A stretch of 42,429 nt of DNA from Acidobacteriota bacterium (GTDB taxonomy: Bacteria; Acidobacteriota; Terriglobia; Terriglobales; Acidobacteriaceae). A program made the translations under genes and the position numbers. The notes beneath the pieces were generated by a model that was not told the DNA's origin, did not search any database, and worked only from the letters and a program-made list of their open reading frames with translations. Each line of letters begins with the position of its first letter. Within the stretch, counting starts at the first letter, position 1. Location of the stretch: assembly GCA_021790655.1 (NCBI GenBank), contig JAJYGR010000001.1, positions 1-42,429 on the forward strand, in the 5' to 3' direction. Shown here one piece after another: positions 282 to 9,075 of the stretch.

Positions 282-1308
282 TTGGACAAAGCGCCTATGA
301 AGTCAGAACTGCTGCGTTGTTGCCTCCTGTGTCCGATCCTGCTTGGTTGGGACGCCACCGGTTTCCCAAGCGGACGTATCGGCCAGTTTCCTGGTTCACA
401 TCGGGCAACGTGGAACAACCCTGTCGCTTCGTCGGAGGTAGTCCAGGTGGGTGGCGCTTCCATTCAGATTGATGTTGGCCCCAGCGATCTCGACGCGAAG
501 CACAAAGATGTTGTTCGGTGGGTCGAGGCGGCTGCCAGTGCTGTCTCCGTCTACTATGGAAAATTTCCTGTAGCGCGTGCGCGTGTCCTTGTCCTGCCGA
601 TTGCCGACGAGCGCGGAGTGCTGACCGGAACGACCTGGGGCCATGTGGATGGATTCCCGGCGCTTACCAGGATGCGCATCGGACAGCATACGACGGAGCA
701 GGACTTGGCAAACGACTGGACGATGACGCACGAACTTGTGCACATGATATTGCCCTCACTTTCGGAGAACAACCATTGGCTTGAAGAGGGGCTTGCAACC
801 TATATCGAGCCGATTGCCAGATCGCAAGCCAGCACTCTTGCCCCGGAAAAAGTATGGGGAGAGATGATTCGGAACATGCCCAAGGGAGAACCCGGGGCCT
901 CCGATCAGGGCTTGGATCAGACACATACCTGGGCAAGTACTTACTGGGGCGGCCCCTGTTTTCCTTCGTGGCAGACGTCACCATCTGGAAAAAGACTGGA
1001 GACCGAAGGGGTTGCAGGATGCATTACGCGCGATCGTCGCTGCGGGAGGGACCATTGATCAAGAGTGGCCCATCTCAAGGGTTGCTTGCCGTGGGCGACC
1101 AAGCCACAGGAACGTCGTATTGACCAGCCCTTACAAGACAATGAGAGAAGAGCCAGACCCCGTGGATCTGAGCCTGCTATGGAAGCAACTCGGCGTCCGT
1201 TCCGACAGCAGCCATATTGTCTTCGATAACGAGGCCCATCTCGTCGGAATACGACAAAAGATCATATCCCCAGAACTGCGTCCTGCGGGCACTCTGAAAT
1301 ACAGGTAA
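282..1308 (+). pseudogene. Gluzincin-type (HExxH...E) metallopeptidase-like gene, interrupted by several frameshifts
   Basis: ORF 282-1058 carries WTMTHELVHM...NHWLEEGLATY, which is HExxH plus a downstream Glu in WLxEG (MA-clan signature). After about 950 the protein-like reading continues only by hopping frames. The path is ...TYWGG (frame of 282), then LFSFVADVTIWKKTGDRRG (frame of ORF 854), then LQDALRAIVAAGGTIDQEWPIS (frame of ORF 1012), then LLAVGDQATGTS (frame of 854), then VLTSPYKTMREEPDPVDLSLLWKQLGV... (frame of 1012, stop at 1308). Confidence 0.6.
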
Positions 1309-1317
1309 ACCAGTCTC

Positions 1318-1365
1318 TTTGTCGTATAACCTTCTTTTCGCGCCGGAATCGTACTGGCTAGAGGA
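1318..1365 (+). promoter_or_regulatory. Promoter-like box, copy 1 (upstream of the ECF sigma gene), shared with 2341-2384
   Basis: The sequence tttgtcgtaTAACCttCTTTTCgcgcCGGAATCgtaCTGGctagagg aligns block for block with the box upstream of the Cys-rich precursor gene. Both have 13 nt between TAAC and CGGAATC. Confidence 0.45.
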
Positions 1366-1514
1366 ACAGGGCGAGGGATGAGATCGATGCTGAGTGATCA
1401 AATATAAATCAAAATAACAGCACCATAAAATCCGCCGGGGAGCAGGCCGAAGGCAACGCACGGTCACACGATTGCAGCAATTACGATCTTAGGCTCTCTC
1501 AGCTTTGCCTTCAC

Positions 1515-2190
1515 ATGCAGCAAGTTAGCGATCAAACAAAAATCTTCGTGAAGGATGTCGCGATGAATTCATTCAGCCTGGACAATAATGACAGAGCGCT
1601 TAGTATTGATGCTCAAAGCATGCACGAGAAGGGGCTTATCGGAGCGGCACAAGCCGGGCACGAATGGGCTTTCTTGGAGCTGTGCAAGCGCAATTCTTCA
1701 CGCATTTTCAAGACCCTCTACGGGGTGACGAAGAATCGTGAAGACGCAGAAGATGCACTTCAGGATTCCTTCATGAGAGCCTTCCTTCATTTAAGGCAAT
1801 TTGATGGAAGATCTAGCTTTTCTACCTGGTTCACTCGTATTGGAATTAATTCGGCAATCATGCTGTTGAGGAAGAAGTGTAAATATCGCGAAACATCGAT
1901 GGATACTTCCTTGGACGGAAGTGACACCTGGAATGACTGGGACGTCGCTGACCACTCGCTTGATCCAGAACAAAGTTACGCCGCCTGCGAGAGAACAATG
2001 CGCCTAAAGCAAGCAATCCGCCGTTTACCATCCCCCCCTTTGAACTGTCGTCGAGATTCGACAGGATGACAGTCTCTCGATGCGAGAGATGGCCGAGCTT
2101 GCAGGCATCTCCGTTCCTGCCGTTAAGTCACGATTGGTCCGCGCCAGGGCAACACTTCGCAGGTCACTCAGCGAACCCGTCCATGAGTAG
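1515..2190 (+). pseudogene. ECF (sigma-70 family) RNA polymerase sigma factor, frameshifted between region 2 and region 4
   Basis: ORF 1515-2069 has region 2 (EWAFLELCKRNSSRIFKTLYGVTKNREDAEDALQDSFMRAFLHLRQFDGRSSFSTWFTRIGINSAIMLLRK). The region-4 HTH is readable only in the +1 frame from 2044 to the TAG at 2188-2190: TVVEIRQDDSLSMREMAELAGISVPAVKSRLVRARATLRRSLSEPVHE. The upstream frame ends at the TGA at 2067-2069. The +1 frame has a TGA at 2041-2043, so the shift lies at about 2041-2046. Confidence 0.8.
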
Positions 2191-2340
2191 CCGCAAGACG
2201 GTGCATCCGCAATTCATATTGCGACCATTAGATAAAGACTGCGCGTAGAGGCAACGCGCCGACGCGGTTTCCATGATGCCCGCATGGTCATCAATACTCG
2301 AGGTCTGTTCGATCCGAGCAGAGCAAAACTTCTCCCCCCA

Positions 2341-2384
2341 TGTCTGTAACCTTTCTTTTCATTCGGAATCATTGCTGGTAAGGG
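2341..2384 (+). promoter_or_regulatory. Promoter-like box, copy 2 (upstream of the RiPP precursor gene)
   Basis: The sequence tgtctgTAACCtttCTTTTCattCGGAATCattgCTGGtaaggg lies about 50 nt upstream of the ATG at 2431. It has the same block order and spacing as 1318-1365. Confidence 0.45.
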
Positions 2385-2430
2385 CCGGACTCCGGTACGG
2401 CCTCATTCTGAATGAGGAAGGAATCACCGA

Positions 2431-2718
2431 ATGAACAACAACGTAAAAACGCTCATATTTGCAGCGGCTGTTACAGGTTTATTTACGGGAACCGCTGTTC
2501 GCGCCAACGCAGCTACGACTGCGGAAGGCGGCCACACACAGTACGCCACGCAGACTTCGACCAACTCGGCCCACTTGCTCTACACACAGCAAAAGACAGA
2601 GAAGCACTCCTGCAAGGGCAAGAACTCCTGCAAAGGGCAGGGCGCCGACCACAAGAACTCCTGCAAGGGCAAGGGGAGCTGTGCAACCGACGGGTCCAAA
2701 CCACCAAAGATGTCGTAG
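2431..2718 (+). CDS. Small secreted Cys-repeat protein; putative MNIO-modified RiPP precursor (bufferin/HvfA-like metallophore precursor)
   Basis: This is a 95-aa protein. It has a Sec-type signal peptide, MNNNVKTLIFAAAVTGLFTGTAVRANA|A. The mature part ends in EKHSCKGKNSCKGQGADHKNSCKGKGSCATDG, with four Cys each in an x-S-C-K/A-G context. A GAAGGA RBS precedes the start. The gene sits directly upstream of DUF692/DUF2063/DoxX genes. Confidence 0.75.
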   Translation: MNNNVKTLIFAAAVTGLFTGTAVRANAATTAEGGHTQYATQTSTNSAHLLYTQQKTEKHSCKGKNSCKGQGADHKNSCKGKGSCATDGSKPPKMS

Positions 2719-2797
2719 CATTGCACGGGATCGGGCGGTGGTCTGCCAGAAACATGCTCAGCACTGCCGCCCAATCTTTCAGTTTCTGGAGTGTTGT

Positions 2798-3673
2798 ATG
2801 GCAGCCAATCGGTTCAACGCCTTTACGGACTACGGCATCGGCATCGGCTTGCGCGTGCCGCATTACGGGCACATCCTCACGCAGCATCCGGTCGTCGATT
2901 GGTTTGAGGTCATCTCTGAAAATTACATGGTGGATGGCGGTCGACCGCTCGCAATGCTCGATAAGATTCTGGATCAATACCGGGTAGTGCAGCATGGCGT
3001 CTCCATGTATTTCGGCTCTGCCGATCGTTTGAACAAGGAACATCTTCGCCGTCTGAAAGCCCTCACACGTCGCACCAACACGCCTTGGCTCTCCGACCAT
3101 CTCTGCTGGGGCAGCGTCGATGGCCGCTACACGCACGACCTGCTACCGATGCCCTACACCTGGGAGGCCGTCAAAGTCACGGCGGAAAAAGTCCGGCAGG
3201 TGCAGGACTACCTCGAAATCCCCGTCGCCGTGGAAAATGTAAGCAGCTATGCTGAGTTTCACGTCTCGGAAATGACGGAGTGGCAATTCCTTACTGAGGT
3301 GGTAGAGCGCGCAGACTGCGGCATCTTGCTTGACGTGAACAACATTTACGTCAGTTCCATGAACCACAGCTTCGATCCTCGCGTTTATGTGGACTTTGTT
3401 CCCGCAGAGCGGGTCGCGCAGATCCACATTGCAGGCCATTCGCGCTTCCAGAAATATCTTCTCGATACGCACGATCACCCTGTTCTCGATCCGGTCTGGG
3501 ACCTTTACGCGCAGGCCATTCGCCGTTGTGGATCCACCGCAACGCTGCTGGAATGGGACGATAGCATCCCCTCATTTGAGGAAGTGCATGCAGAAGCCTT
3601 GAAGGCCAACCGCTTTCTGGCTGAAGTCAGCTCCGCCGCGAATACAAACCATGTTATGGAAGGTGCGCAATGA
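2798..3673 (+). CDS. DUF692 family multinuclear non-heme iron oxidative enzyme (MNIO; MbnB/BufB/HvfB-like)
   Basis: The motifs are typical of DUF692 TIM-barrel proteins: GIGLRVPHYGHIL...WFEVISENYM...HGVSMYFGS...PWLSDHLCW...DLLPMPYT...VENVSSY...LLDVNNIYVSSMNH...HIAGH. I chose the start at ATG 2798 (MAANRF..., GGAG RBS). The longer ORF starting at 2459 overlaps the precursor gene in another frame. Confidence 0.88.
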   Translation: MAANRFNAFTDYGIGIGLRVPHYGHILTQHPVVDWFEVISENYMVDGGRPLAMLDKILDQYRVVQHGVSMYFGSADRLNKEHLRRLKALTRRTNTPWLSDHLCWGSVDGRYTHDLLPMPYTWEAVKVTAEKVRQVQDYLEIPVAVENVSSYAEFHVSEMTEWQFLTEVVERADCGILLDVNNIYVSSMNHSFDPRVYVDFVPAERVAQIHIAGHSRFQKYLLDTHDHPVLDPVWDLYAQAIRRCGSTATLLEWDDSIPSFEEVHAEALKANRFLAEVSSAANTNHVMEGAQ

Positions 3674-4611
3674 GGGAGCTTAAGCAATTGCAGCGGCGCA
3701 TGGCCTCGGCAGTGATGACTCCTCTCACTCGCACCGATGGCATGAAGACGAAATTGCCGGATGGCGGCTCGATGCGCGCCGAGGTGAAGGAGTTCATCAA
3801 GCCGAATGACCGGCTTTCCTCCTTTGAACGGCTGGAGATCTACAACCAGCAGTATTGGTTCCGGATTCTCGATGCCTTTGCCGAAGACTTTCCCGGCCTC
3901 AGGGCCATCGTCGGCACGCACAGATTCGAGCAGTTGTCACTGGCCTATCTTACAGAGTGTCCCTCGCGCTCCTATACTTTGCGCAATCTCGGCAGCCGGC
4001 TGCTCGCATGGCTCCGCGCTCATCCGAAATGGGTGCAACCGCAGGAGCGATTGGCGCTCGACATGGTTCGTCTGGAATGGGCGCATGTGGAAGCCTTCGA
4101 CGCGGCGGACGAGCCTGTTGTTGGCCCAGAGGATCTCCTGGAAGTGACCCCGGCAACGCATTTTGCCATTCAGCCGCACATTAGCCTGCTGCAGCTCGCA
4201 TATCCCGTAGACGATTTGCTGCTCGCAGTAAAAGACGATTCAGACCAGCAGAGCGACGCAGCCAGCAATGCGGGTTCCTATCGGCGCAAGCAGCACCCAG
4301 CGGTCAAAAAGATGCAGCGACTCAACCGGGAGCGAATCTACGTTGCTGTCTATCGGCATCAATACAGCGTTTGGTTTCGACGGCTGACGCCCGAAGCATT
4401 CCGCATGCTCCGCTCGATGCGGCAGGGCAACCCGCTGGGGGTAGCCCTTGACCATGCGCTACATGGCAGCCGCTTGCGCGAAAGTGAACTTGCAACGCAG
4501 GCACAGGAGTTGTTCGCAGAGTGGTCGCAACTTGGCTGGTTCTGCAAAGCGTCCGATACTACGTGTTTGAATATGGGCAATTCGCCTGAACGGAGACAAG
4601 ACAAAATATGA
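3670..4611 (+). CDS. DUF2063 domain protein (MNIO partner; BufC/HvfC-like)
   Basis: There is an ATGA start/stop overlap with the DUF692 gene. The N-terminal pattern ...DRLSSFERLEIYNQQYWFRILDAFAEDFPGLRAIVG..FEQLSLAYLTECPSRSYTLRNLG is characteristic of DUF2063 proteins that pair with DUF692. Confidence 0.8.
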   Translation: MRELKQLQRRMASAVMTPLTRTDGMKTKLPDGGSMRAEVKEFIKPNDRLSSFERLEIYNQQYWFRILDAFAEDFPGLRAIVGTHRFEQLSLAYLTECPSRSYTLRNLGSRLLAWLRAHPKWVQPQERLALDMVRLEWAHVEAFDAADEPVVGPEDLLEVTPATHFAIQPHISLLQLAYPVDDLLLAVKDDSDQQSDAASNAGSYRRKQHPAVKKMQRLNRERIYVAVYRHQYSVWFRRLTPEAFRMLRSMRQGNPLGVALDHALHGSRLRESELATQAQELFAEWSQLGWFCKASDTTCLNMGNSPERRQDKI

Positions 4612-5090
4612 AAACCCAGCTTATCGGTTGCTATAGATCATTCAAGACGGCAACGTCAAACTTGCAGTCGTCGTTTCTGCTCGTCATCCGCCTCTATTGG
4701 GGCTTTCAATTTATGCAGATCGGCTGGGGTAAGCTGCATAACATCTCCGGAGTGACCAACTACTTCACGCAACTCGGTCTCCCGTTTCCCCACTTGACCG
4801 TCATCTTCATTGCGCTGCTCGAATTCGGCGGCGGCATTCTCTTGATGCTTGGCCTGGCATCGCGTTTGATCGCCGTTCCGCTTGCGAGCGACATGCTGGT
4901 CGCTTACATCGTCGCAGACCGCAAAGCTCTCCTCGCCTTTTTCAGCGACCCAGGTATGTTCTACATTGCGGACCCATTTACTTTCCTATTCATATCCTTG
5001 CTGATTCTCACCTTTGGCCCAGGCCGCTTCGCGTTCGATACGTTGATTGCTAAGTACTGGACTGGCTACGACAATCCGACAACGAGTTGA
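4608..5090 (+). CDS. DoxX family membrane protein
   Basis: There is an ATGA overlap with the DUF2063 gene. The 160-aa product has four hydrophobic segments and a DoxX-like pattern (LVIRLYWGFQFMQIGWGKL...LLEFGGGILLMLGLASRLIAVPL). Confidence 0.8.
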   Translation: MKTQLIGCYRSFKTATSNLQSSFLLVIRLYWGFQFMQIGWGKLHNISGVTNYFTQLGLPFPHLTVIFIALLEFGGGILLMLGLASRLIAVPLASDMLVAYIVADRKALLAFFSDPGMFYIADPFTFLFISLLILTFGPGRFAFDTLIAKYWTGYDNPTTS

Positions 5091-5183
5091 AGAGAGCGAT
5101 GCTGAAAGCAGCTAAAGCCAGGCGAACTACCACTTGGCTGCTGGTGGGGGAGCGGACTATCTATTCAGGGACAGGAGCTGACC

Positions 5184-7772
5184 ATGTTCCGGCTGAGATC
5201 CAGCACGATTCGCATTCTCATTATTGCCTTCGGAACTGCGGCAGTCTTGATCGCTGGCGTCCTGCTCCATCGATATCTCCAATATGAGGGAACCCCCGAA
5301 GCCCTACTAAGACGGGCCGACGATCTTTCGTGGAAAAACCAGTGGATGGAGGCGGCCCCGATTTACGCCAGGGCAGAGCGACTCTTCGCGAAAGAGCATC
5401 GACCATCGCAGGCGCTCTATGCTCATGTGAGCCAATTCATCCCGCAGGCGGAATCGGAAGAAATTCCCGTTTTGCTGCTCGAGCTTCAACAGGACCTGGC
5501 ATTGCCTGCGGCACAGGATCCCGATACCAGGCTCCGCATCCTTGTAATTCAGGGAATGATCGAGACGAATTACAACGCGGCGATGGCCTCGAAAACCTGG
5601 AGGCAGGTTCAGACCTTGGCGAGGCAACAGCATCACTATCTTCTGATGACCCGCGCGACGGGAGAACAAGGAATTGCCGCATTTCTACTGGGAGACATCA
5701 CAACCGCGAAAAAGCTCGTCGTGAGGGCATGGATCGTCGCAAAGTATCTTCATGATCCTGCCACGCAAGTGCGATACGCGAGTGTCTATGGGACAGGACT
5801 GGTTGAGATGCACCGATACGATGAGGCGATTCACGTCCTGGATGGCGCGATCAATACGGCGGCTCGCTCTCCTGGCATCGCCTACCCAAGTATCGCTGTC
5901 AATTCCAAGATCGATGCGCTGCGTGGTCTTCGCCGCTATCAGGCAGCCCTCGCGCTGTGCGACGAAGCCAGTCGCCGTCTACCCAGGGCACGCCTGGATG
6001 CACACCTCTTTCAGCTGTTGACCTCGAAAGGCCAAATCTACGAGGACATGGGCCGGTGGCAGGACGCCGCCCAGCAGTACACGCTCGCCCTCGACTATGC
6101 ACAGCGATTGAGTTACTGGCGTGGAATCACGCAGACGGATGGCTTACGCGCCCGCGCCTATGAGCACGAAGACGACCTCGGCCAGGCGCTGATGAGTATC
6201 AATGAGGCCATTGCGGCAAATACTCACTTGCCGCACGAGCTCTATTTCGTCCCACAAAACCTGGCGATCAAGGCGGAGATCCTTGAAAAACTGGGCCGCA
6301 CGCAGGAATCGCATGACCTCTACACAAAGAGCGCCGTTCTCATCGATTCTCTGCTTGCGACCGCACCAACTCCGGACGTCGAGCGGGAACTGCTTACCGC
6401 GTTGAGCCAGGTCTATTCAGGCGATTTTGAACTGCTGTCGAACGAGAGAAAATTTTCTCAGGCATTTCAGATCGTCGAAAAAGCGCGTGGACGGGTCGAG
6501 GCGCAATCCCTGGAACATCATGCAGTGCTCGAGCCACACCAACCTACTCTTCAGGAGCAGCGGATCACAGAATTGAACTTGCAACTCATCAATAGCGACG
6601 ATTCCTCCGTGAGACGCCAGCTCGCGCAAGCCCTCTATGACGCTGAGTTGCAGTTGGACGACTCGTCGCCTGCCGGGCGGACTGCCACACATCCTGTTCC
6701 GCTGAAGACTGTCCAGCGGGACCTTCGCCCCACGGAGCTTCTGATTGAGTATGTCCTCGATAAACCTCGTTCGTATGCTCTGGCGGTCACGCGCCATTCG
6801 GTCCATGTATACGAGCTTCCGTCAAAGACGGTGATCGAGGAGCAGGCATCAGAGTATCGACGCCTCCTTCGCAACCGCCAGACCAACACCGTACTGGCCC
6901 AGACGCTGTTCAAGGATCTGCTCTCCCCCATCCCTGAATACAGAAACAAGTTTTCGATCGTTATTGTGCCGGATGGAAACCTACATTTGCTCCCATTTTC
7001 CGCACTGATGGATCAAGGACGTTATACGATCCGGACGCACGCCTTCAGCACGGCACCATCGGCGACGGTCTTCTACATCCTGCGGAATCGGAGTCACGCA
7101 ACAGTGAGCGCTCAGCGATCTTATCTGGGTGTTGCCGCATGGTCGCAGCCCGCGGAACCTAGAATTCCGATCCTGCGAGCCATGGAAGGTCTGGAACGTC
7201 CCAAGCTTCAACCGTTGCCGGAAAGCAGGGCGGAGGTTGAAGCGATTGCGCACCTTCTTCCGGCGCCGAGCACTGTTCTGCTGGGAGCAAACGCTACTGA
7301 AAGCAACTTCAAAAGCCTACCTCTCGCCGAGTACCGCGTCGTTCATCTTGCCCTTCACGGGTATGCCGATCTCGAATATCCCGATCGTTCCGCACTTGTC
7401 TTTGCGCCGCAGGACAAGCCAACCGATGACGGCCTGCTTCAGGTGCGGGAGATCCGCAGGTTGCATCTAAACGCGCGACTCGTGACCCTGTCGGCTTGCG
7501 ATACTGGAATCGGGCCTGTCGGAGAAGCGGGTGTCGCCAACCTCACCAACGCCTTTATTGAGGCTGGCGCCGACACGGTTGTATCGACGCTCTGGGAGCT
7601 TGAGGACCAGCCAACCACCCAACTGATGACAGAGTTCTACACCAGGCTTGCGCAGCACCAAAACATAGGGCAGGCATTGCGTGGGGCCCAGCTCCAGTTT
7701 CTGCAGGCTGGCCTGGCCCCGTATTATTGGGCGAGCTTTGAAATCGTAGGCGACCCAGATGGCACAATCTGA
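5184..7772 (+). CDS. Membrane-anchored TPR-repeat CHAT-domain protein (caspase-like protease fold)
   Basis: The 862-aa product has an N-terminal TM helix (IRILIIAFGTAAVLIAGVLL) and a long helical TPR-like middle region. The C-terminal CHAT signature includes the His/Cys dyad context VVHLALHGYAD... and LVTLSACDTGIGPVGEAGVANLTNAFIEAGADTVVSTLWELED. An AGGAG RBS precedes the start. Confidence 0.85.
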   Translation: MFRLRSSTIRILIIAFGTAAVLIAGVLLHRYLQYEGTPEALLRRADDLSWKNQWMEAAPIYARAERLFAKEHRPSQALYAHVSQFIPQAESEEIPVLLLELQQDLALPAAQDPDTRLRILVIQGMIETNYNAAMASKTWRQVQTLARQQHHYLLMTRATGEQGIAAFLLGDITTAKKLVVRAWIVAKYLHDPATQVRYASVYGTGLVEMHRYDEAIHVLDGAINTAARSPGIAYPSIAVNSKIDALRGLRRYQAALALCDEASRRLPRARLDAHLFQLLTSKGQIYEDMGRWQDAAQQYTLALDYAQRLSYWRGITQTDGLRARAYEHEDDLGQALMSINEAIAANTHLPHELYFVPQNLAIKAEILEKLGRTQESHDLYTKSAVLIDSLLATAPTPDVERELLTALSQVYSGDFELLSNERKFSQAFQIVEKARGRVEAQSLEHHAVLEPHQPTLQEQRITELNLQLINSDDSSVRRQLAQALYDAELQLDDSSPAGRTATHPVPLKTVQRDLRPTELLIEYVLDKPRSYALAVTRHSVHVYELPSKTVIEEQASEYRRLLRNRQTNTVLAQTLFKDLLSPIPEYRNKFSIVIVPDGNLHLLPFSALMDQGRYTIRTHAFSTAPSATVFYILRNRSHATVSAQRSYLGVAAWSQPAEPRIPILRAMEGLERPKLQPLPESRAEVEAIAHLLPAPSTVLLGANATESNFKSLPLAEYRVVHLALHGYADLEYPDRSALVFAPQDKPTDDGLLQVREIRRLHLNARLVTLSACDTGIGPVGEAGVANLTNAFIEAGADTVVSTLWELEDQPTTQLMTEFYTRLAQHQNIGQALRGAQLQFLQAGLAPYYWASFEIVGDPDGTI

Positions 7773-7806
7773 ACGTGCTATCTAAAAACCAAGGAGGCAG
7801 TCTCCG

Positions 7807-9075
7807 ATGACCGTCCTGAATGAGAAACAACGGGCCGAGATCCTGGATGCAGTTTCAAAGACGGTAGTGAAGCGTTTCTACGATCCGCAGCTTCGCGGTA
7901 TCGATTGGGACGCAGCGGTTGCAAGACACAGAAGCGACATCGTGACTGCGCCGAATGCGGAGGCTTTTGAAAGTGCAATCTCCAAACTGCTCAGTGAACT
8001 GAAAACGTCTCACATAGGTTTCTATCATCACGCCCTGGAGAGGGCCACGAGCAAAATGGCAATCAGTGCCACCTATACCTCGTTTCCGGTCGATGGAAAC
8101 GAATGCTGGGTATTTCAAGATGTTCATCCGGGAGGAGCAGCGCATCTGGCGGGCATTCGCCCGGGAGACATTCTCGTGTCTGTAGACGGACGATCCTTTG
8201 CCCCGCCGGAGCATCCGGTCTTTCCCATGGGCCAGAAGGTGGAGCTGAAAGTAATCACGTCTATCCACCAGGCAGAGGTTCGACTTGTCGATGTCCCACC
8301 ACCAACCCGGAAGCGCAATCAGCTTCCCTACGCCCAGCCAAAACTTGTGAGCGGAAAGAGGCTCCGGGCCGATACAGGCTACATCCGGATCTCGATGTAT
8401 CCGGGAATGATAGGGATTGAGGTTGCGAATGAAATCTCTTCCACAGTAAAATTTTTGGGCTCGATCGAAAGACTGATCCTCGACCTACGCGGCAATACCG
8501 GCGGCGGAATCGGTGTTCTCCGGGCGATGAGTTTTCTGACCCCTGAGCGGATTCCAGTTGGTTACTCCCTGACGCGAAGACAACTTGAGAGCGCACACAA
8601 CATCGACCAGTCCTTGGTATTTGACCGCATCCCTGCAAAGAAACGCGGCTTGTTCCCCATGGCGTTCAAGTTCCTCGTGTTTCCCTGGCTGCTGAAGTTT
8701 GCAAGGCAGAAGAAATTCATCACTCTGGCAACCGAAGGGCTCGGCCATCAACCATTTCAGGGCCGCATTGTGTTGTTGGTCAATCGCCACACTGCGAGTG
8801 CGAATGAGATGCTGGTAGCCTTCGCGAAAGAGAACCGCCTGGCAACGATCGTCGGAGAAGCCACTCCCGGACGGCTGCTCGCCGGCAACAAGTTCAAGCT
8901 GCCCTACGATTACTGGCTTGCGCTTCCGGTGGGCGTTTATCGCACAGCGTCCGGCACACTGCTCGAAGGAACGCCGATTGTTCCCGACATTGAGGTCTCA
9001 TTCGATCCCGGACAGGCGCGCGAAGGAAGGGACACGCAGTTGGAGAAAGCCATCGAAATAGTCTCTCAGATCTAA
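7807..9075 (+). CDS. S41 family peptidase with PDZ domain (C-terminal processing protease-like)
   Basis: It has a PDZ-like segment (GGAAHLAGIRPGDILVSVDGRSF) and S41 motifs (LILDLRGNTGGGIG and VNRHTASANEMLVAF). A GGAGG RBS precedes the start. Confidence 0.85.
   Translation: MTVLNEKQRAEILDAVSKTVVKRFYDPQLRGIDWDAAVARHRSDIVTAPNAEAFESAISKLLSELKTSHIGFYHHALERATSKMAISATYTSFPVDGNECWVFQDVHPGGAAHLAGIRPGDILVSVDGRSFAPPEHPVFPMGQKVELKVITSIHQAEVRLVDVPPPTRKRNQLPYAQPKLVSGKRLRADTGYIRISMYPGMIGIEVANEISSTVKFLGSIERLILDLRGNTGGGIGVLRAMSFLTPERIPVGYSLTRRQLESAHNIDQSLVFDRIPAKKRGLFPMAFKFLVFPWLLKFARQKKFITLATEGLGHQPFQGRIVLLVNRHTASANEMLVAFAKENRLATIVGEATPGRLLAGNKFKLPYDYWLALPVGVYRTASGTLLEGTPIVPDIEVSFDPGQAREGRDTQLEKAIEIVSQI

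What the first reader, a model, noticed from the sequence alone, without database searches (positions are those of the whole stretch)
2431..5090. MNIO (DUF692)-DUF2063-DoxX cassette with a Sec-exported Cys-repeat precursor: a bufferin/HvfABC-type periplasmic RiPP metallophore system with an atypical core peptide
Four co-directional genes are tightly coupled, with ATGA overlaps at 3670 and 4608. The first encodes a 95-aa protein with a classical signal peptide (cleavage predicted after ANA). Its only Cys residues lie in a compact repeat: HSCKG-KNSCKG-(8 aa)-NSCKG-KGSCA. The next genes are a DUF692 TIM-barrel enzyme (the multinuclear non-heme iron oxidase family that includes MbnB), its usual DUF2063 partner, and DoxX. 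This is the architecture reported for bufferins (the gig operon of Cupriavidus, buf operons of Caulobacter) and for HvfABC of Haemophilus. In those systems Cys residues of a signal-peptide-bearing precursor are oxidised to thiooxazole or oxazolone/thioamide copper ligands. The precursor here fits neither of the two described precursor types as I remember them (DUF2282 with CxGxxKAGxNDC...SCAG, or EGKCG repeats). Its unit is x-S-C-K-G, and the host appears to be an acidobacterium. It therefore probably represents an uncharacterised precursor subclass. Predicted product: a periplasmic, roughly 68-residue peptide with up to four modified Cys that binds Cu or another soft metal.
Basis: partly seen in the sequence, partly recalled or inferred. 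Interest (0 to 1): 0.85.

Follow-up and report, generated by a model that had tools for sequence, protein, structure and literature searches.

The report
Four-cysteine bufferin-2-type metallophore operon
This is an ordinary member of a recently described and very widespread bacterial system that turns cysteines of a small exported peptide into metal-binding rings; its only unusual point is that the peptide has four cysteines, not the six or twelve described for its family.

Summary
Window 2431-5090 holds four co-directional, translationally coupled genes: a 95-aa signal-peptide precursor with four Cys, an MNIO enzyme, a DUF2063 partner and DoxX.

The enzyme passes NCBI's curated BufB (bufferin maturase) cut-off and fails the HvfB and MbnB cut-offs.

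Its C-K-G units define the Buf2 (BUF_6/12Cys) or "Cys-Lys captophorin" group. Its closest relatives (72-73% identical) are six-Cys peptides of that group, found in Terriglobales next to the same genes. The window peptide is that six-Cys peptide minus an eight-residue segment carrying Cys III and IV.

Four-Cys forms make up about 12% of the 150 best cluster representatives and occur in at least four separate enzyme clades. The papers I read do not mention them.

By homology with Caulobacter Buf2 and Buf1, I predict two 5-thiooxazoles (Cys67, Cys78) and one Cys61-Cys84 disulfide, not four modified Cys.

A conserved TGTAACC box, matching the -35 element of Caulobacter sigma-F, lies upstream of the precursor gene.

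Verdict: a new variant of a known kind, of low to moderate interest.

The parts
2345..2371 (+). Putative ECF-type promoter. It has a TGTAACC -35 box (2345-2351), a 16-nt spacer and ATCA (2368-2371), and lies 80 nt upstream of the precursor start codon.
   Evidence: This is the only TGTAACC in the 42-kb window. The same heptamer lies within 260 nt upstream of the precursor gene in 37 of 88 related loci, at 1.66 per kb against 0.026 per kb elsewhere in those loci. A T-C pair is conserved 16-17 nt downstream. The box matches the experimentally derived Caulobacter sigma-F site GTAACC-N16-CGAA (PMC3511200) and the Brucella BcrS sites TGTAACCTTT (PMC8315932). Promoter function here is inferred, not shown.
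2431..2718 (+). Precursor peptide gene (95 aa). The signal peptide is encoded by 2431-2511 and the 68-aa core by 2512-2715. The Cys-rich domain K58-K90 is encoded by 2602-2700, with C61, C67, C78 and C84.
   Evidence: ORF and sequence. The only profile hit is NCBIfam BufA2, NF050166, at 21.9 bits against a cut-off of 60. There are 3307 homologues. Alignment A1 shows a six-Cys Buf2-type domain lacking an 8-aa segment that holds Cys III and IV. Purifying selection is shown.
2798..3673 (+). MNIO (DUF692) maturase of the BufB type, 291 aa.
   Evidence: PF05114 scores 361.9 bits. NCBIfam MNIO_BufB scores 352.4 against a cut-off of 310. HvfB scores 254.7 (cut-off 360), ApyH 92.5 (400), ChrH 67.7 (600) and MbnB 40.6 (325). 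It aligns to PDB 3BWW with the conserved motifs sDHL, vEN, lDvNNiyv, HiaGH and DTH. The EWDD motif at aa 252-255 matches the 'Asp after the catalytic Asp' signature of Cys-Lys MNIOs, whereas 3BWW has ERDF (PMC13097082).
3670..4611 (+). DUF2063 partner protein (BufC / PME1 type), 313 aa. Its start overlaps the MNIO stop codon (ATGA).
   Evidence: PF09836 scores 59.1 bits against a cut-off of 27.2. The C-terminal NGO1945_C hit is weak, 18.7 against 27. NCBIfam HvfC scores 45.4 against 142. No PDB sequence match was found. The gene is conserved directly after the MNIO gene in related loci.
4608..5090 (+). DoxX membrane protein (BufD / HvfX-like), 160 aa. Its start overlaps the DUF2063 stop codon (ATGA).
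   Evidence: PF07681 scores 66.3 bits against a cut-off of 23.6. NCBIfam HvfX family scores 61.7 against 80. It is the fourth gene in 71 of 80 loci.
1515..2188 (+). Adjacent ECF sigma factor gene, disrupted by a frameshift. It is not a conserved part of the cluster.
   Evidence: Region 2 is in the frame of 1515-2069 (Sigma70_r2, 54.7 bits). Region 4 is in another frame at 2044-2188 (Sigma70_r4_2, 30.8 bits against a cut-off of 25.7). The segment 1273-2342 is absent from the closest relatives L081 and L082.

Best explanation
The cassette is a Buf2-type bufferin operon (in the later nomenclature, a 'Cys-Lys' captophorin operon) of a Terriglobales acidobacterium.

Proposed mechanism:
1. The 95-aa precursor is made in the cytoplasm.
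2. The MNIO enzyme (2798-3673), working with its DUF2063 partner (3670-4611), oxidises selected Cys residues of the precursor to 5-thiooxazoles. This is a four-electron oxidation, about -4 Da per Cys.
3. The peptide is exported by the Sec pathway and its 27-residue signal peptide is removed after ANA. This leaves a 68-residue periplasmic peptide that sequesters copper, and possibly other soft metals, under metal stress.
4. DoxX (4608-5090) is an accessory membrane protein of unknown step.

The precursor is a four-Cys derivative of the family's standard six-Cys domain. It lacks the segment that carries Cys III and IV. By positional homology, Cys61 and Cys84 (equivalent to Cys I and VI) stay unmodified and form a disulfide, while Cys67 and Cys78 (equivalent to Cys II and V, both in N-S-C-K-G) become thiooxazoles. 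The predicted product is therefore about -10 Da relative to the 7.10-kDa core, with one two-thiooxazole metal site, the same count as Buf1.

Expression is probably driven by an ECF sigma factor acting on the TGTAACC box at 2345-2351.

Shown here: gene content, family assignments, homology to six-Cys forms, conservation and synteny. Inferred: the chemistry, which Cys are modified, the metal, the regulation, and the timing of modification relative to export.
For: - The MNIO passes the BufB equivalog cut-off (352.4 against 310) and no other MNIO model. The MNIOs next to both four-Cys and six-Cys precursors in relatives score the same, 350-364 bits.
- DUF2063 and DoxX pass their Pfam cut-offs. The gene order bufA-B-C-D with ATGA overlaps is present and is kept in 71 of 80 loci.
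- The precursor's only profile hit is BufA2. It is 72-73% identical, N-terminal region included, to the six-Cys peptides P0009 and P0011. The alignment shows a clean 8-aa gap that removes two Cys.
- 77 of 83 precursors in the GTDB loci have six Cys in the pattern C-x5-C-x5-C-x6-C-x5-C-x5-C.
- Table S2 of PMC12452194 lists Buf_6-12Cys precursors followed by MNIO and DUF2063 genes with consecutive accession numbers in Koribacter versatilis and the assembly GCF_000178955.2, and a Buf_6-12Cys precursor together with MNIO and DUF2063 genes in Terriglobus saanensis.
- The MNIO motif EWDD is present here and in 77 of 78 related loci, against ERDF in the EGKCG-type 3BWW. Gadgil et al. report that Cys-Lys MNIOs replace this Phe with Asp, and that in their model the Asp contacts the substrate Lys (PMC13097082).
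- Chemistry and Cys usage come from Caulobacter. In Buf1, Cys I and IV form a disulfide and Cys II and III become 5-thiooxazoles. In Buf2, Cys I and VI are unmodified and the four central Cys each lose 4.03 Da (PMC11626156; thiooxazole confirmed in 10.64898/2025.12.15.693703).
- Metal link in a relative: the four-Cys operon in L085/L086 sits between genes for an ECF sigma, a zf-HC2 protein, AhpC/redoxin, MFS, a pyridine-nucleotide disulfide oxidoreductase, MerT and HMA on one side and a YHS/HMBD P-type ATPase on the other.
- Promoter box.
Against: - The precursor fails the NCBIfam BufA2 cut-off (21.9 against 60) and lacks two of the six Cys that define BUF_6/12Cys. The acidobacterial six-Cys forms also fail that cut-off (30-36 bits).
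- I could not obtain a bona fide Caulobacter BufA2 sequence. The mapping of Cys I/VI therefore rests on the acidobacterial six-Cys forms and on the published description. The published Cys24-Cys50 spacing (26 residues) differs from the 31-residue Cys I-VI spacing seen here.
- Both AlphaFold2 models of the precursor were of low confidence (pLDDT 48.6 and 51.3). No structural support for a Cys61-Cys84 disulfide was obtained.
- Nothing next to the operon in the window is metal-specific.
- The only adjacent sigma gene is frameshifted.
- No expression or chemical data exist for any acidobacterial member.
Confidence: 0.75

Rival explanations
1. The system is the same, but all four Cys are converted to thiooxazoles. 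That would give a peptide with two metal sites and no disulfide.
For: Three of the four Cys (C61, C67, C78) sit in the same x-S-C-K-G context, and the MNIO carries the Lys-recognising EWDD signature. Losing Cys III and IV could shift the enzyme's register. No structural model argues for a C61-C84 disulfide.
Against: In Caulobacter Buf2 the first Cys is unmodified and the last Cys is also unmodified. In Buf1 the outer pair forms a disulfide (PMC11626156). C84 is followed by Ala-Thr, not Lys-Gly, in every homologue. H59 before C61 and the A-T-D-G after C84 are invariant or nearly so, which suggests a structural role distinct from the internal units.
Confidence: 0.15
2. The peptide is made and modified as proposed, but its physiological target is not copper. 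The target would be another soft metal such as Hg, or an oxidant stress such as hypochlorite.
For: A four-Cys operon in a relative lies next to genes for MerT, an HMA protein and a pyridine-nucleotide disulfide oxidoreductase that could be a mercuric reductase, plus AhpC/redoxin (L085/L086). MerC-Buf2 fusions are reported (PMC12452194). The matching TGTAACCTTT promoter type in Brucella belongs to a hypochlorite-responsive ECF system (PMC8315932). A second four-Cys subtype is linked to a thioredoxin/DsbH-like protein (L087-L089).
Against: Both characterised bufferins, and all characterised EGKCG captophorins, bind copper. In the reporter assays cited for Caulobacter, the buf genes were induced by Cu but not by Fe, Zn or Mn (PMC11626156; PMC13097082). 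The same L085 locus also carries a copper-type P-type ATPase (YHS, HMBD). No mer genes lie near the operon in the window.
Confidence: 0.2
3. The precursor belongs to a genuinely new, uncharacterised class, unrelated to Buf1, Buf2 or EGKCG peptides.
For: It has no Pfam hit and only a sub-threshold NCBIfam hit. Public records call the homologues 'hypothetical protein' or leave them unannotated. The four-Cys state is not mentioned in the papers I read.
Against: It is 72-73% identical to six-Cys peptides with the Buf2 pattern, and the alignment shows a simple internal deletion. There is a continuum of 4-, 5-, 6-, 8-, 10- and 12-Cys forms in one HMM family. The maturases are the same BufB-type enzymes. 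Terriglobales members are already classed as Buf_6-12Cys, and 69 Acidobacteriota MNIO-PME1 clusters are catalogued.
Confidence: 0.04
4. The operon is silent or decaying in this organism, and the peptide is either not made or is an unmodified Cys-rich periplasmic protein.
For: The adjacent ECF sigma gene is frameshifted. Stand-alone precursor genes without an MNIO gene exist in relatives (L084; L033).
Against: All four ORFs are intact and translationally coupled. From about 2910 onward, the MNIO gene and the aligned part of the DUF2063 gene are nearly identical to three independent assemblies. The Cys region is under strong purifying selection. The sigma gene is not a conserved component, so its loss need not silence the operon. 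The conserved promoter box is intact.
Confidence: 0.06

Closest known systems
Bufferin 2 (Buf2; BufA2-BufB2-BufC2 of Caulobacter vibrioides; BUF_6/12Cys family; the 'Cys-Lys' captophorin group)
   Same: Both have a Sec-signal-peptide precursor with Cys-Lys-Gly units encoded directly upstream of a BufB-type MNIO and a DUF2063 partner. The MNIO carries the Asp-Asp (EWDD) signature of Cys-Lys enzymes. BufA2 is the precursor's only profile hit. The upstream -35 box GTAACC matches the one used by Caulobacter sigma-F for its buf operons.
   Different: The window peptide has four Cys, not six or twelve; Cys III and IV are missing. It scores below the NCBIfam BufA2 cut-off. A DoxX gene is present, whereas the Caulobacter buf2 operon lacks one. 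The host is an acidobacterium. The -10 element differs (xTCx against CGAA).
Bufferin 1 (Buf1; DUF2282 precursor; the gig operon of Cupriavidus and buf1ABCD of Caulobacter)
   Same: Both have the four-gene layout precursor-MNIO-DUF2063-DoxX. Both precursors have four Cys, and the predicted outcome here (outer pair as a disulfide, inner pair as thiooxazoles, -10 Da) is what was measured for Buf1. ECF sigma genes are often nearby.
   Different: The window precursor has no DUF2282 (PF10048) match and its Cys spacing and sequence context are different. The resemblance in Cys count is convergent, reached by loss from a six-Cys Buf2 domain. No NrsF anti-sigma gene was seen.
HvfABC / oxazolin, fontiphorin, gonophorin, bulbicupramide (EGKCG or 'Lys-Cys' captophorins)
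   Same: Both have an MNIO, a DUF2063 partner and a DoxX-family gene, and a signal-peptide precursor with repeated Cys units. Both are assigned to the same large MNIO sequence cluster. The products are 5-thiooxazole copper binders.
   Different: Here the repeat unit is x-S-C-K-G (Lys after Cys), not E-G-K-C-G (Lys before Cys). HvfB, HvfC and HvfX all score below their cut-offs. This MNIO has EWDD where the EGKCG-type enzyme 3BWW has ERDF. FonBC did not process an N-A-C-K-G substrate (PMC13097082).
Methanobactin MbnABC
   Same: Both use an MNIO-superfamily enzyme that oxidises Cys of a ribosomal peptide to give copper ligands.
   Different: MbnB scores 40.6 bits against a cut-off of 325. There is no MbnC. 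The partner here is DUF2063. The methanobactin precursor has a leader peptide and no Sec signal, and its chemistry is oxazolone/thioamide.

Membership tests
Bufferin / captophorin biosynthetic cluster (MNIO + PME1) | MNIO enzyme of the bufferin-maturase subfamily | tested here: met
   NCBIfam MNIO_BufB NF050167 scores 352.4 bits against a cut-off of 310. PF05114 scores 361.9 bits.
Bufferin / captophorin biosynthetic cluster (MNIO + PME1) | DUF2063 partner protein encoded directly after the MNIO gene | tested here: met
   PF09836 scores 59.1 bits against 27.2, and the ATGA overlap lies at 3670. The C-terminal RRE-like NGO1945_C domain scores only 18.7 against 27, so that part is inconclusive.
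Bufferin / captophorin biosynthetic cluster (MNIO + PME1) | Cys-containing precursor with a Sec signal peptide, encoded directly upstream of the MNIO gene (order bufA-B-C) | tested here: met
   The 95-aa ORF ends 79 nt before the MNIO start. It has an n/h/c region with A-N-A|A, and the A-x-A-like site is conserved in homologues. No dedicated signal-peptide predictor was available.
Bufferin / captophorin biosynthetic cluster (MNIO + PME1) | DoxX gene as the fourth core gene | tested here: met
   PF07681 scores 66.3 bits against 23.6, with an ATGA overlap at 4608. It is present in 71 of 80 related loci.
Bufferin / captophorin biosynthetic cluster (MNIO + PME1) | Cys residues converted to 5-thiooxazoles, and a product that binds copper | not testable with these tools
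   This needs co-expression, MS, NMR, UV-vis and metal-binding assays.
Buf2 / BUF_6/12Cys (BufA2) precursor family | Six (or twelve) conserved Cys | tested here: not met
   The peptide has four Cys (C61, C67, C78, C84). The alignment shows that Cys III and IV are absent.
Buf2 / BUF_6/12Cys (BufA2) precursor family | Score at or above the curated cut-off of the NCBIfam BufA2 equivalog model | tested here: not met
   NF050166 scores 21.9 bits against a cut-off of 60, although it is the only hit. Nineteen relatives were scanned and all stay below the cut-off. The six-Cys forms score 30-36 bits and the best, a twelve-Cys form, scores 59.2. The model is therefore narrower than the family defined by Antoine et al.
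Buf2 / BUF_6/12Cys (BufA2) precursor family | Sequence homology to six-Cys members that sit next to BufB-type MNIOs | tested here: met
   It is 72-73% identical to the six-Cys P0009 and P0011 over the full length. The six-Cys L001 locus has an MNIO 87% identical to the window's. Terriglobales precursors are classed as Buf_6-12Cys in Table S2 of PMC12452194.
Buf2 / BUF_6/12Cys (BufA2) precursor family | Match to the authors' own Buf_6/12Cys HMM | not testable with these tools
   The HMM is not in any library available here.
'Cys-Lys' captophorin group (Gadgil et al. 2026) | Multiple Cys-Lys dyads in the precursor, and Asp in place of Phe after the catalytic Asp in the MNIO | tested here: met
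   Three C-K-G units are present. The MNIO has EWDD at aa 252-255, against ERDF in 3BWW, and the motif is conserved in 77 of 78 loci (PMC13097082).
Buf1 / DUF2282 precursor family | Match to Pfam DUF2282 (PF10048) | tested here: not met
   No Pfam family matched the precursor at E<=0.1.
HvfABC / EGKCG (oxazolin) system | EGKCG repeats in the precursor, and HvfB, HvfC and HvfX equivalog scores above their cut-offs | tested here: not met
   The peptide has no EGKCG motif. HvfB scores 254.7 against 360, HvfC 45.4 against 142 and HvfX 61.7 against 80.
Methanobactin (MbnB/MbnC) | MbnB equivalog score above the cut-off, and an MbnC partner | tested here: not met
   TIGR04159 scores 40.6 bits against 325. 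The partner here is DUF2063, not MbnC.

The most novel reading that the evidence does not exclude
The four-Cys 'C-K-G-Q-G-A-D-x-K-N-x-C' core is not a set of independent decay products. It is a distinct, ancient precursor allele that moves between Buf2-type operons by recombination, and it retunes the product from four thiooxazoles to two. That would change metal stoichiometry or selectivity, for example towards Hg in mer-linked loci.

The evidence does not exclude this:
- Nearly the same four-Cys core occurs next to MNIOs that are only 48% identical (L032).
- It occurs in at least three separate MNIO clades whose nearest neighbours have six-Cys precursors.
- A sharp recombination junction lies just downstream of the precursor gene in this very locus.
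Probability: 0.15. Interest if true: 0.5.

Novelty: new variant of a known kind. Interest (0 to 1): 0.3.

Why it matters
Bufferins (captophorins) are among the largest RiPP families, and only a few members have been characterised chemically. For Buf2 only mass shifts and a UV spectrum are published.

This locus adds little to the list of system types. It does point to a natural series of precursors with four, five, six, eight, ten and twelve Cys that are served by nearly interchangeable enzymes. For example, the window's MNIO is 87% identical to that of L001, whose substrate has six Cys.

Such pairs are convenient material for asking three questions: how the MNIO/DUF2063 pair chooses which Cys to oxidise, why the outer Cys are spared, and how the number of thiooxazoles sets metal stoichiometry.

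It also shows two further points. The curated NCBIfam BufA2 model misses the whole acidobacterial branch, so these precursors remain 'hypothetical' or uncalled in public records. And the sigma-F-type -35 box travels with Buf2-type operons well beyond the Proteobacteria.

Tried and rejected
1. Structure prediction of the precursor. I ran AlphaFold2 with a 15-sequence alignment and with a 146-sequence alignment. Both gave low confidence (mean pLDDT 48.6 and 51.3). I therefore made no fold comparison and could not test the disulfide geometry.

2. Obtaining a bona fide BufA2 sequence to map Cys I-VI directly. The PNAS paper has no supplements held as text. The Gadgil supplement does not contain the term 'BufA2'. 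None of the 19 relatives scanned reached the NCBIfam cut-off. Cluster look-ups gave no useful names.

3. PDB sequence search with the DUF2063 protein. No significant hit was found; 3DEE is too distant for phmmer.

4. Treating the TPR-CHAT gene (5184-7772) and the S41 peptidase gene (7807-9075) as part of the cluster. Rejected: neither the CHAT gene nor anything similar follows DoxX in any of the 80 related loci.

5. Treating the upstream sigma gene as the cognate regulator. Not supported: it is frameshifted, absent from the closest relatives, and replaced in L090 by an ECF sigma gene with no detectable nucleotide similarity.

6. A consensus sigma-70 promoter and terminator scan of 1300-5400. 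It gave only chance-level promoter matches and nothing at the operon ends.

7. Rfam and tRNA scans of the window. Both found nothing.

8. Looking for metal-resistance genes next to the operon in the window. The nearest candidates, an RND efflux system and a cation-efflux-family protein, lie more than 25 kb away and are not specific.

Full report
**1. The observation**

- 2431-2718: 95 aa.
- 2798-3673: 291 aa.
- 3670-4611: 313 aa.
- 4608-5090: 160 aa.

All four are on the + strand, with ATGA start/stop overlaps at 3670 and 4608. Shine-Dalgarno-like GGAG/GAGG motifs lie before the first two genes.

The small protein reads MNNNVKTLIFAAAVTGLFTGTAVRANA|ATTAEGGHTQYATQTSTNSAHLLYTQQKTEKHSCKGKNSCKGQGADHKNSCKGKGSCATDGSKPPKMS. 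It has a basic n-region, a hydrophobic h-region and an A-N-A cleavage motif, which leaves a 68-residue core of 7.10 kDa. It has no lipobox. Its only Cys are C61, C67, C78 and C84.

The gene is real:
- A search of the 5.8-billion-protein collection found 3307 homologues at E<=0.01.
- In 80 loci from GTDB species genomes, the order precursor-MNIO-DUF2063-DoxX is kept in 71. Most exceptions are contig ends.
- Codon comparison with three relatives gives pN 0.013-0.038 against pS 0.41-0.66 in the Cys region.

**2. What the four proteins are**

- The enzyme matches Pfam MbnB_TglH_ChrH at 361.9 bits. It passes the curated NCBIfam cut-off of exactly one MNIO model, MNIO_BufB, 'bufferin maturase' (352.4 against 310). 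It fails HvfB (254.7 against 360), ApyH, ChrH and MbnB.
- The third protein passes Pfam DUF2063 (59.1 against 27.2). Its hit to the C-terminal NGO1945_C domain is sub-threshold.
- The fourth protein passes Pfam DoxX (66.3 against 23.6).
- The HvfC and HvfX models are hit below their cut-offs.
- The precursor has no Pfam hit. Its single NCBIfam hit is BufA2, 'periplasmic bufferin-type metallophore', at 21.9 bits against a cut-off of 60.

**3. The precursor is a four-Cys derivative of the six-Cys Buf2 domain**

In the GTDB loci, 77 of 83 precursors have six Cys in the pattern KHSCKGKNDCKGQGGCKSSDNGCKGKNSCKGKGGCATDGSK.

Alignment A1 shows that the window peptide is 72-73% identical over its whole length, including the variable N-terminal region, to six-Cys peptides such as P0009 and P0011. 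It differs by an eight-residue gap that removes Cys III and Cys IV:
- six-Cys: ...CKGQGG CKSSDNGC KGKNSC...
- window: ...CKGQGA -------- DHKNSC...

A second four-Cys subtype keeps part of the length but replaces both Cys (CKGQGGGKHPGKNSC).

An HMM search of 1.84 billion cluster representatives found 1049 family members at E<=1e-3. By raw Cys count, the best 150 comprise 102 with six Cys, 18 with four, 7 with twelve, and smaller numbers with other counts between 3 and 15; a few of these counts include stray Cys outside the domain.

The literature describes this family:
- Leprevost et al. named it BUF_6/12Cys. They showed that Caulobacter Buf2 loses 4.03 Da on each of its four central Cys, while Cys I and VI stay unmodified and probably form a disulfide (PMC11626156).
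- Antoine et al. state that members have six Cys in 90% of cases and twelve in the rest (PMC12452194). Their Table S2 lists Buf_6-12Cys precursors followed by MNIO and DUF2063 genes with consecutive accession numbers in Koribacter versatilis and in the assembly GCF_000178955.2 (labelled only Acidobacteriaceae). It also lists a Buf_6-12Cys precursor together with MNIO and DUF2063 genes in Terriglobus saanensis.
- Gadgil et al. call the group 'Cys-Lys' captophorins, and they catalogue 69 MNIO-PME1 clusters in Acidobacteriota, 64 of them in Terriglobales (PMC13097082).

The x-S-C-K-G unit is therefore the hallmark of a known precursor type. What I could not find in these papers is any mention of four-Cys members.

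**4. The enzyme agrees with that assignment**

Gadgil et al. report that MNIOs acting on Cys-Lys substrates have Asp in place of the Phe that follows the catalytic Asp. In their model this Asp contacts the substrate Lys.
- The window enzyme reads E-W-D-D at residues 252-255.
- The EGKCG-type structure 3BWW reads E-R-D-F at the aligned position.
- 77 of 78 MNIOs in the related loci read EWDD.
- MNIOs next to four-Cys and six-Cys precursors score alike on the BufB model, at 350-364 bits.

**5. How the four-Cys form is distributed**

In a neighbour-joining tree of the MNIOs, four-Cys precursors fall in at least four separate places:
- The window with L081, L083 and L090; this clade is sister to the six-Cys L001, whose MNIO is 87% identical to the window's.
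- L007, L021, L085 and L086.
- L087-L089, which carry the substitution subtype.
- L032, a MAG labelled Rickettsiales, whose MNIO is only 48% identical to the window's.

The deletion-type core (CKGxNxCKGQGADxKNxCKGKGSCATDGSK) is almost the same in the first, second and fourth groups. This suggests either repeated loss of the same segment or exchange of precursor alleles. I cannot tell which.

**6. Most likely mechanism**

I infer the mechanism by homology. The MNIO/DUF2063 pair oxidises Cys67 and Cys78 (equivalent to Cys II and V, both in N-S-C-K-G) to 5-thiooxazoles. Cys61 and Cys84 (equivalent to Cys I and VI; the latter is always followed by A-T-D-G, not K-G) form a disulfide. After Sec export and signal-peptide cleavage, the 68-residue peptide would carry one two-thiooxazole metal site. 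The predicted mass shift is about -10 Da, which is the value measured for Buf1.

The 5-thiooxazole assignment now also covers the EGKCG peptides that were first reported as oxazolone/thioamide.

Copper is the default metal, because every characterised member binds it. One four-Cys relative, L085/L086, does sit between an ECF sigma / zf-HC2 / AhpC-redoxin / MFS / pyridine-nucleotide-disulfide-oxidoreductase / MerT / HMA block and a YHS/HMBD P-type ATPase. Mercury or a broader soft-metal role is therefore not excluded.

Structure prediction of the precursor failed to give a confident model. The disulfide and the choice of Cys remain inference.

**7. Regulation**

The heptamer TGTAACC occurs once in the window, at 2345-2351, 80 nt upstream of the start codon. 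In 37 of 88 related loci it lies within 260 nt upstream of the precursor gene. That is a 64-fold enrichment over the rest of those loci, and a T-C pair is conserved 16-17 nt downstream.

GTAACC-N16-CGAA is the sigma-F site in front of the Caulobacter buf operons (PMC3511200). TGTAACCTTT is the -35 box of Brucella BcrS (PMC8315932). An ECF-type promoter is therefore likely.

Antoine et al. found sigma genes in Buf1 clusters but not in Buf2 clusters. Here, ECF sigma genes are common next to acidobacterial Buf2-type operons, in varying positions. The one in the window is frameshifted, and it is absent from the closest relatives.

**8. Verdict**

The system is a Buf2-type bufferin (Cys-Lys captophorin) operon. 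It is not HvfABC-type and it is not a new precursor class. Its precursor fails two formal BufA2/BUF_6/12Cys criteria, the Cys number and the NCBIfam cut-off. I therefore file it as a four-Cys variant of that family and not as a plain member. The maturation enzyme is a member of BufB by the curated test.

The finding is of low to moderate interest. Its value is as a natural substrate variant for studying Cys selection and metal stoichiometry, and as evidence that curated models miss the acidobacterial branch.

Noticed in passing
window 1515-2188: The ECF sigma factor gene is split by a frameshift. Region 2 is in the frame of 1515-2069, and region 4 (TVVEIRQDDSLSMREMAELAGISVPAVKSRLVRARATLRRSL) is in another frame at 2044-2188. 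A run of seven C lies just upstream, at 2031-2039. It is either a pseudogene or an assembly error.
   Followed up: partly
window 1273-2342, compared with L081 and L082: The roughly 1.07-kb segment that carries the sigma gene is missing from the closest relatives. There, the sequence matching window 1272 lies about 53 bp from the sequence matching window 2343, right next to the TGTAACC box. This is an insertion here or a deletion there.
   Followed up: partly
window 2343-4690, compared with L081, L082 and L083: The locus is a sharp mosaic. Three independent assemblies carry an identical precursor allele (P0001) that is about 18-20% diverged from the window at the DNA level. From about 2910 onward the MNIO and DUF2063 genes are 100% identical to the window, except for a 10-mismatch patch at 3736-3935. 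This indicates a recent recombination junction inside the 5' end of the MNIO gene.
   Followed up: partly
window 282-1058: A 258-aa ORF with an HELVH metalloprotease-like motif has no Pfam hit. Homologues recur within a few kb of the operon in L001, L014, L049, L053, L073, L077 and L079. This may be plain synteny or a loose functional link.
   Followed up: no
L085 1-5800 and 11256-12276; L086: A four-Cys operon in a relative is flanked by a divergently transcribed gene block: ECF sigma, zf-HC2 protein, AhpC/redoxin, MFS, a pyridine-nucleotide disulfide oxidoreductase (possibly a mercuric reductase), MerT and an HMA protein. On the other side lies a YHS/HMBD P-type ATPase.
   Followed up: no
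L087-L089 and L084: The second four-Cys subtype (CKGQGGGKHPGKNSC) has a different layout: precursor-MNIO-DUF2063-thioredoxin/DsbH-like protein (598 aa), with DoxX divergent upstream. In L084 (a 4.48-Mb contig) the precursor is followed by a 74-aa ORF and the DsbH-like gene, with no MNIO.
   Followed up: no
L090 6961-7850: A relative with a 76%-identical precursor has a different ECF sigma gene upstream, interrupted by an in-frame stop codon. It is followed by a short ORF with a zf-HC2-like H-x3-C-x2-C motif that was not profile-tested. This is the second disrupted sigma gene seen next to this operon type.
   Followed up: no
L079 3278-8622; L059; L075: Some genomes carry duplicated systems. L079 has two divergently oriented precursor-MNIO-DUF2063 sets. 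L059 and L075 have tandem precursor genes, and one in L075 has nine Cys.
   Followed up: no
window 5184-9075: A TPR-CHAT protein (862 aa; weak Csx29-like hit) and a PDZ/S41 peptidase follow DoxX on the same strand. The CHAT gene is not found next to the operon in any related locus.
   Followed up: partly
window 2431-2715 (database record): The exact precursor sequence is in the public collection on a contig of 42,429 bases, so the window is a whole MAG contig. In the 90% clustering it is grouped, oddly, with DUF692 proteins. Its homologues are unnamed or 'hypothetical protein'.
   Followed up: no
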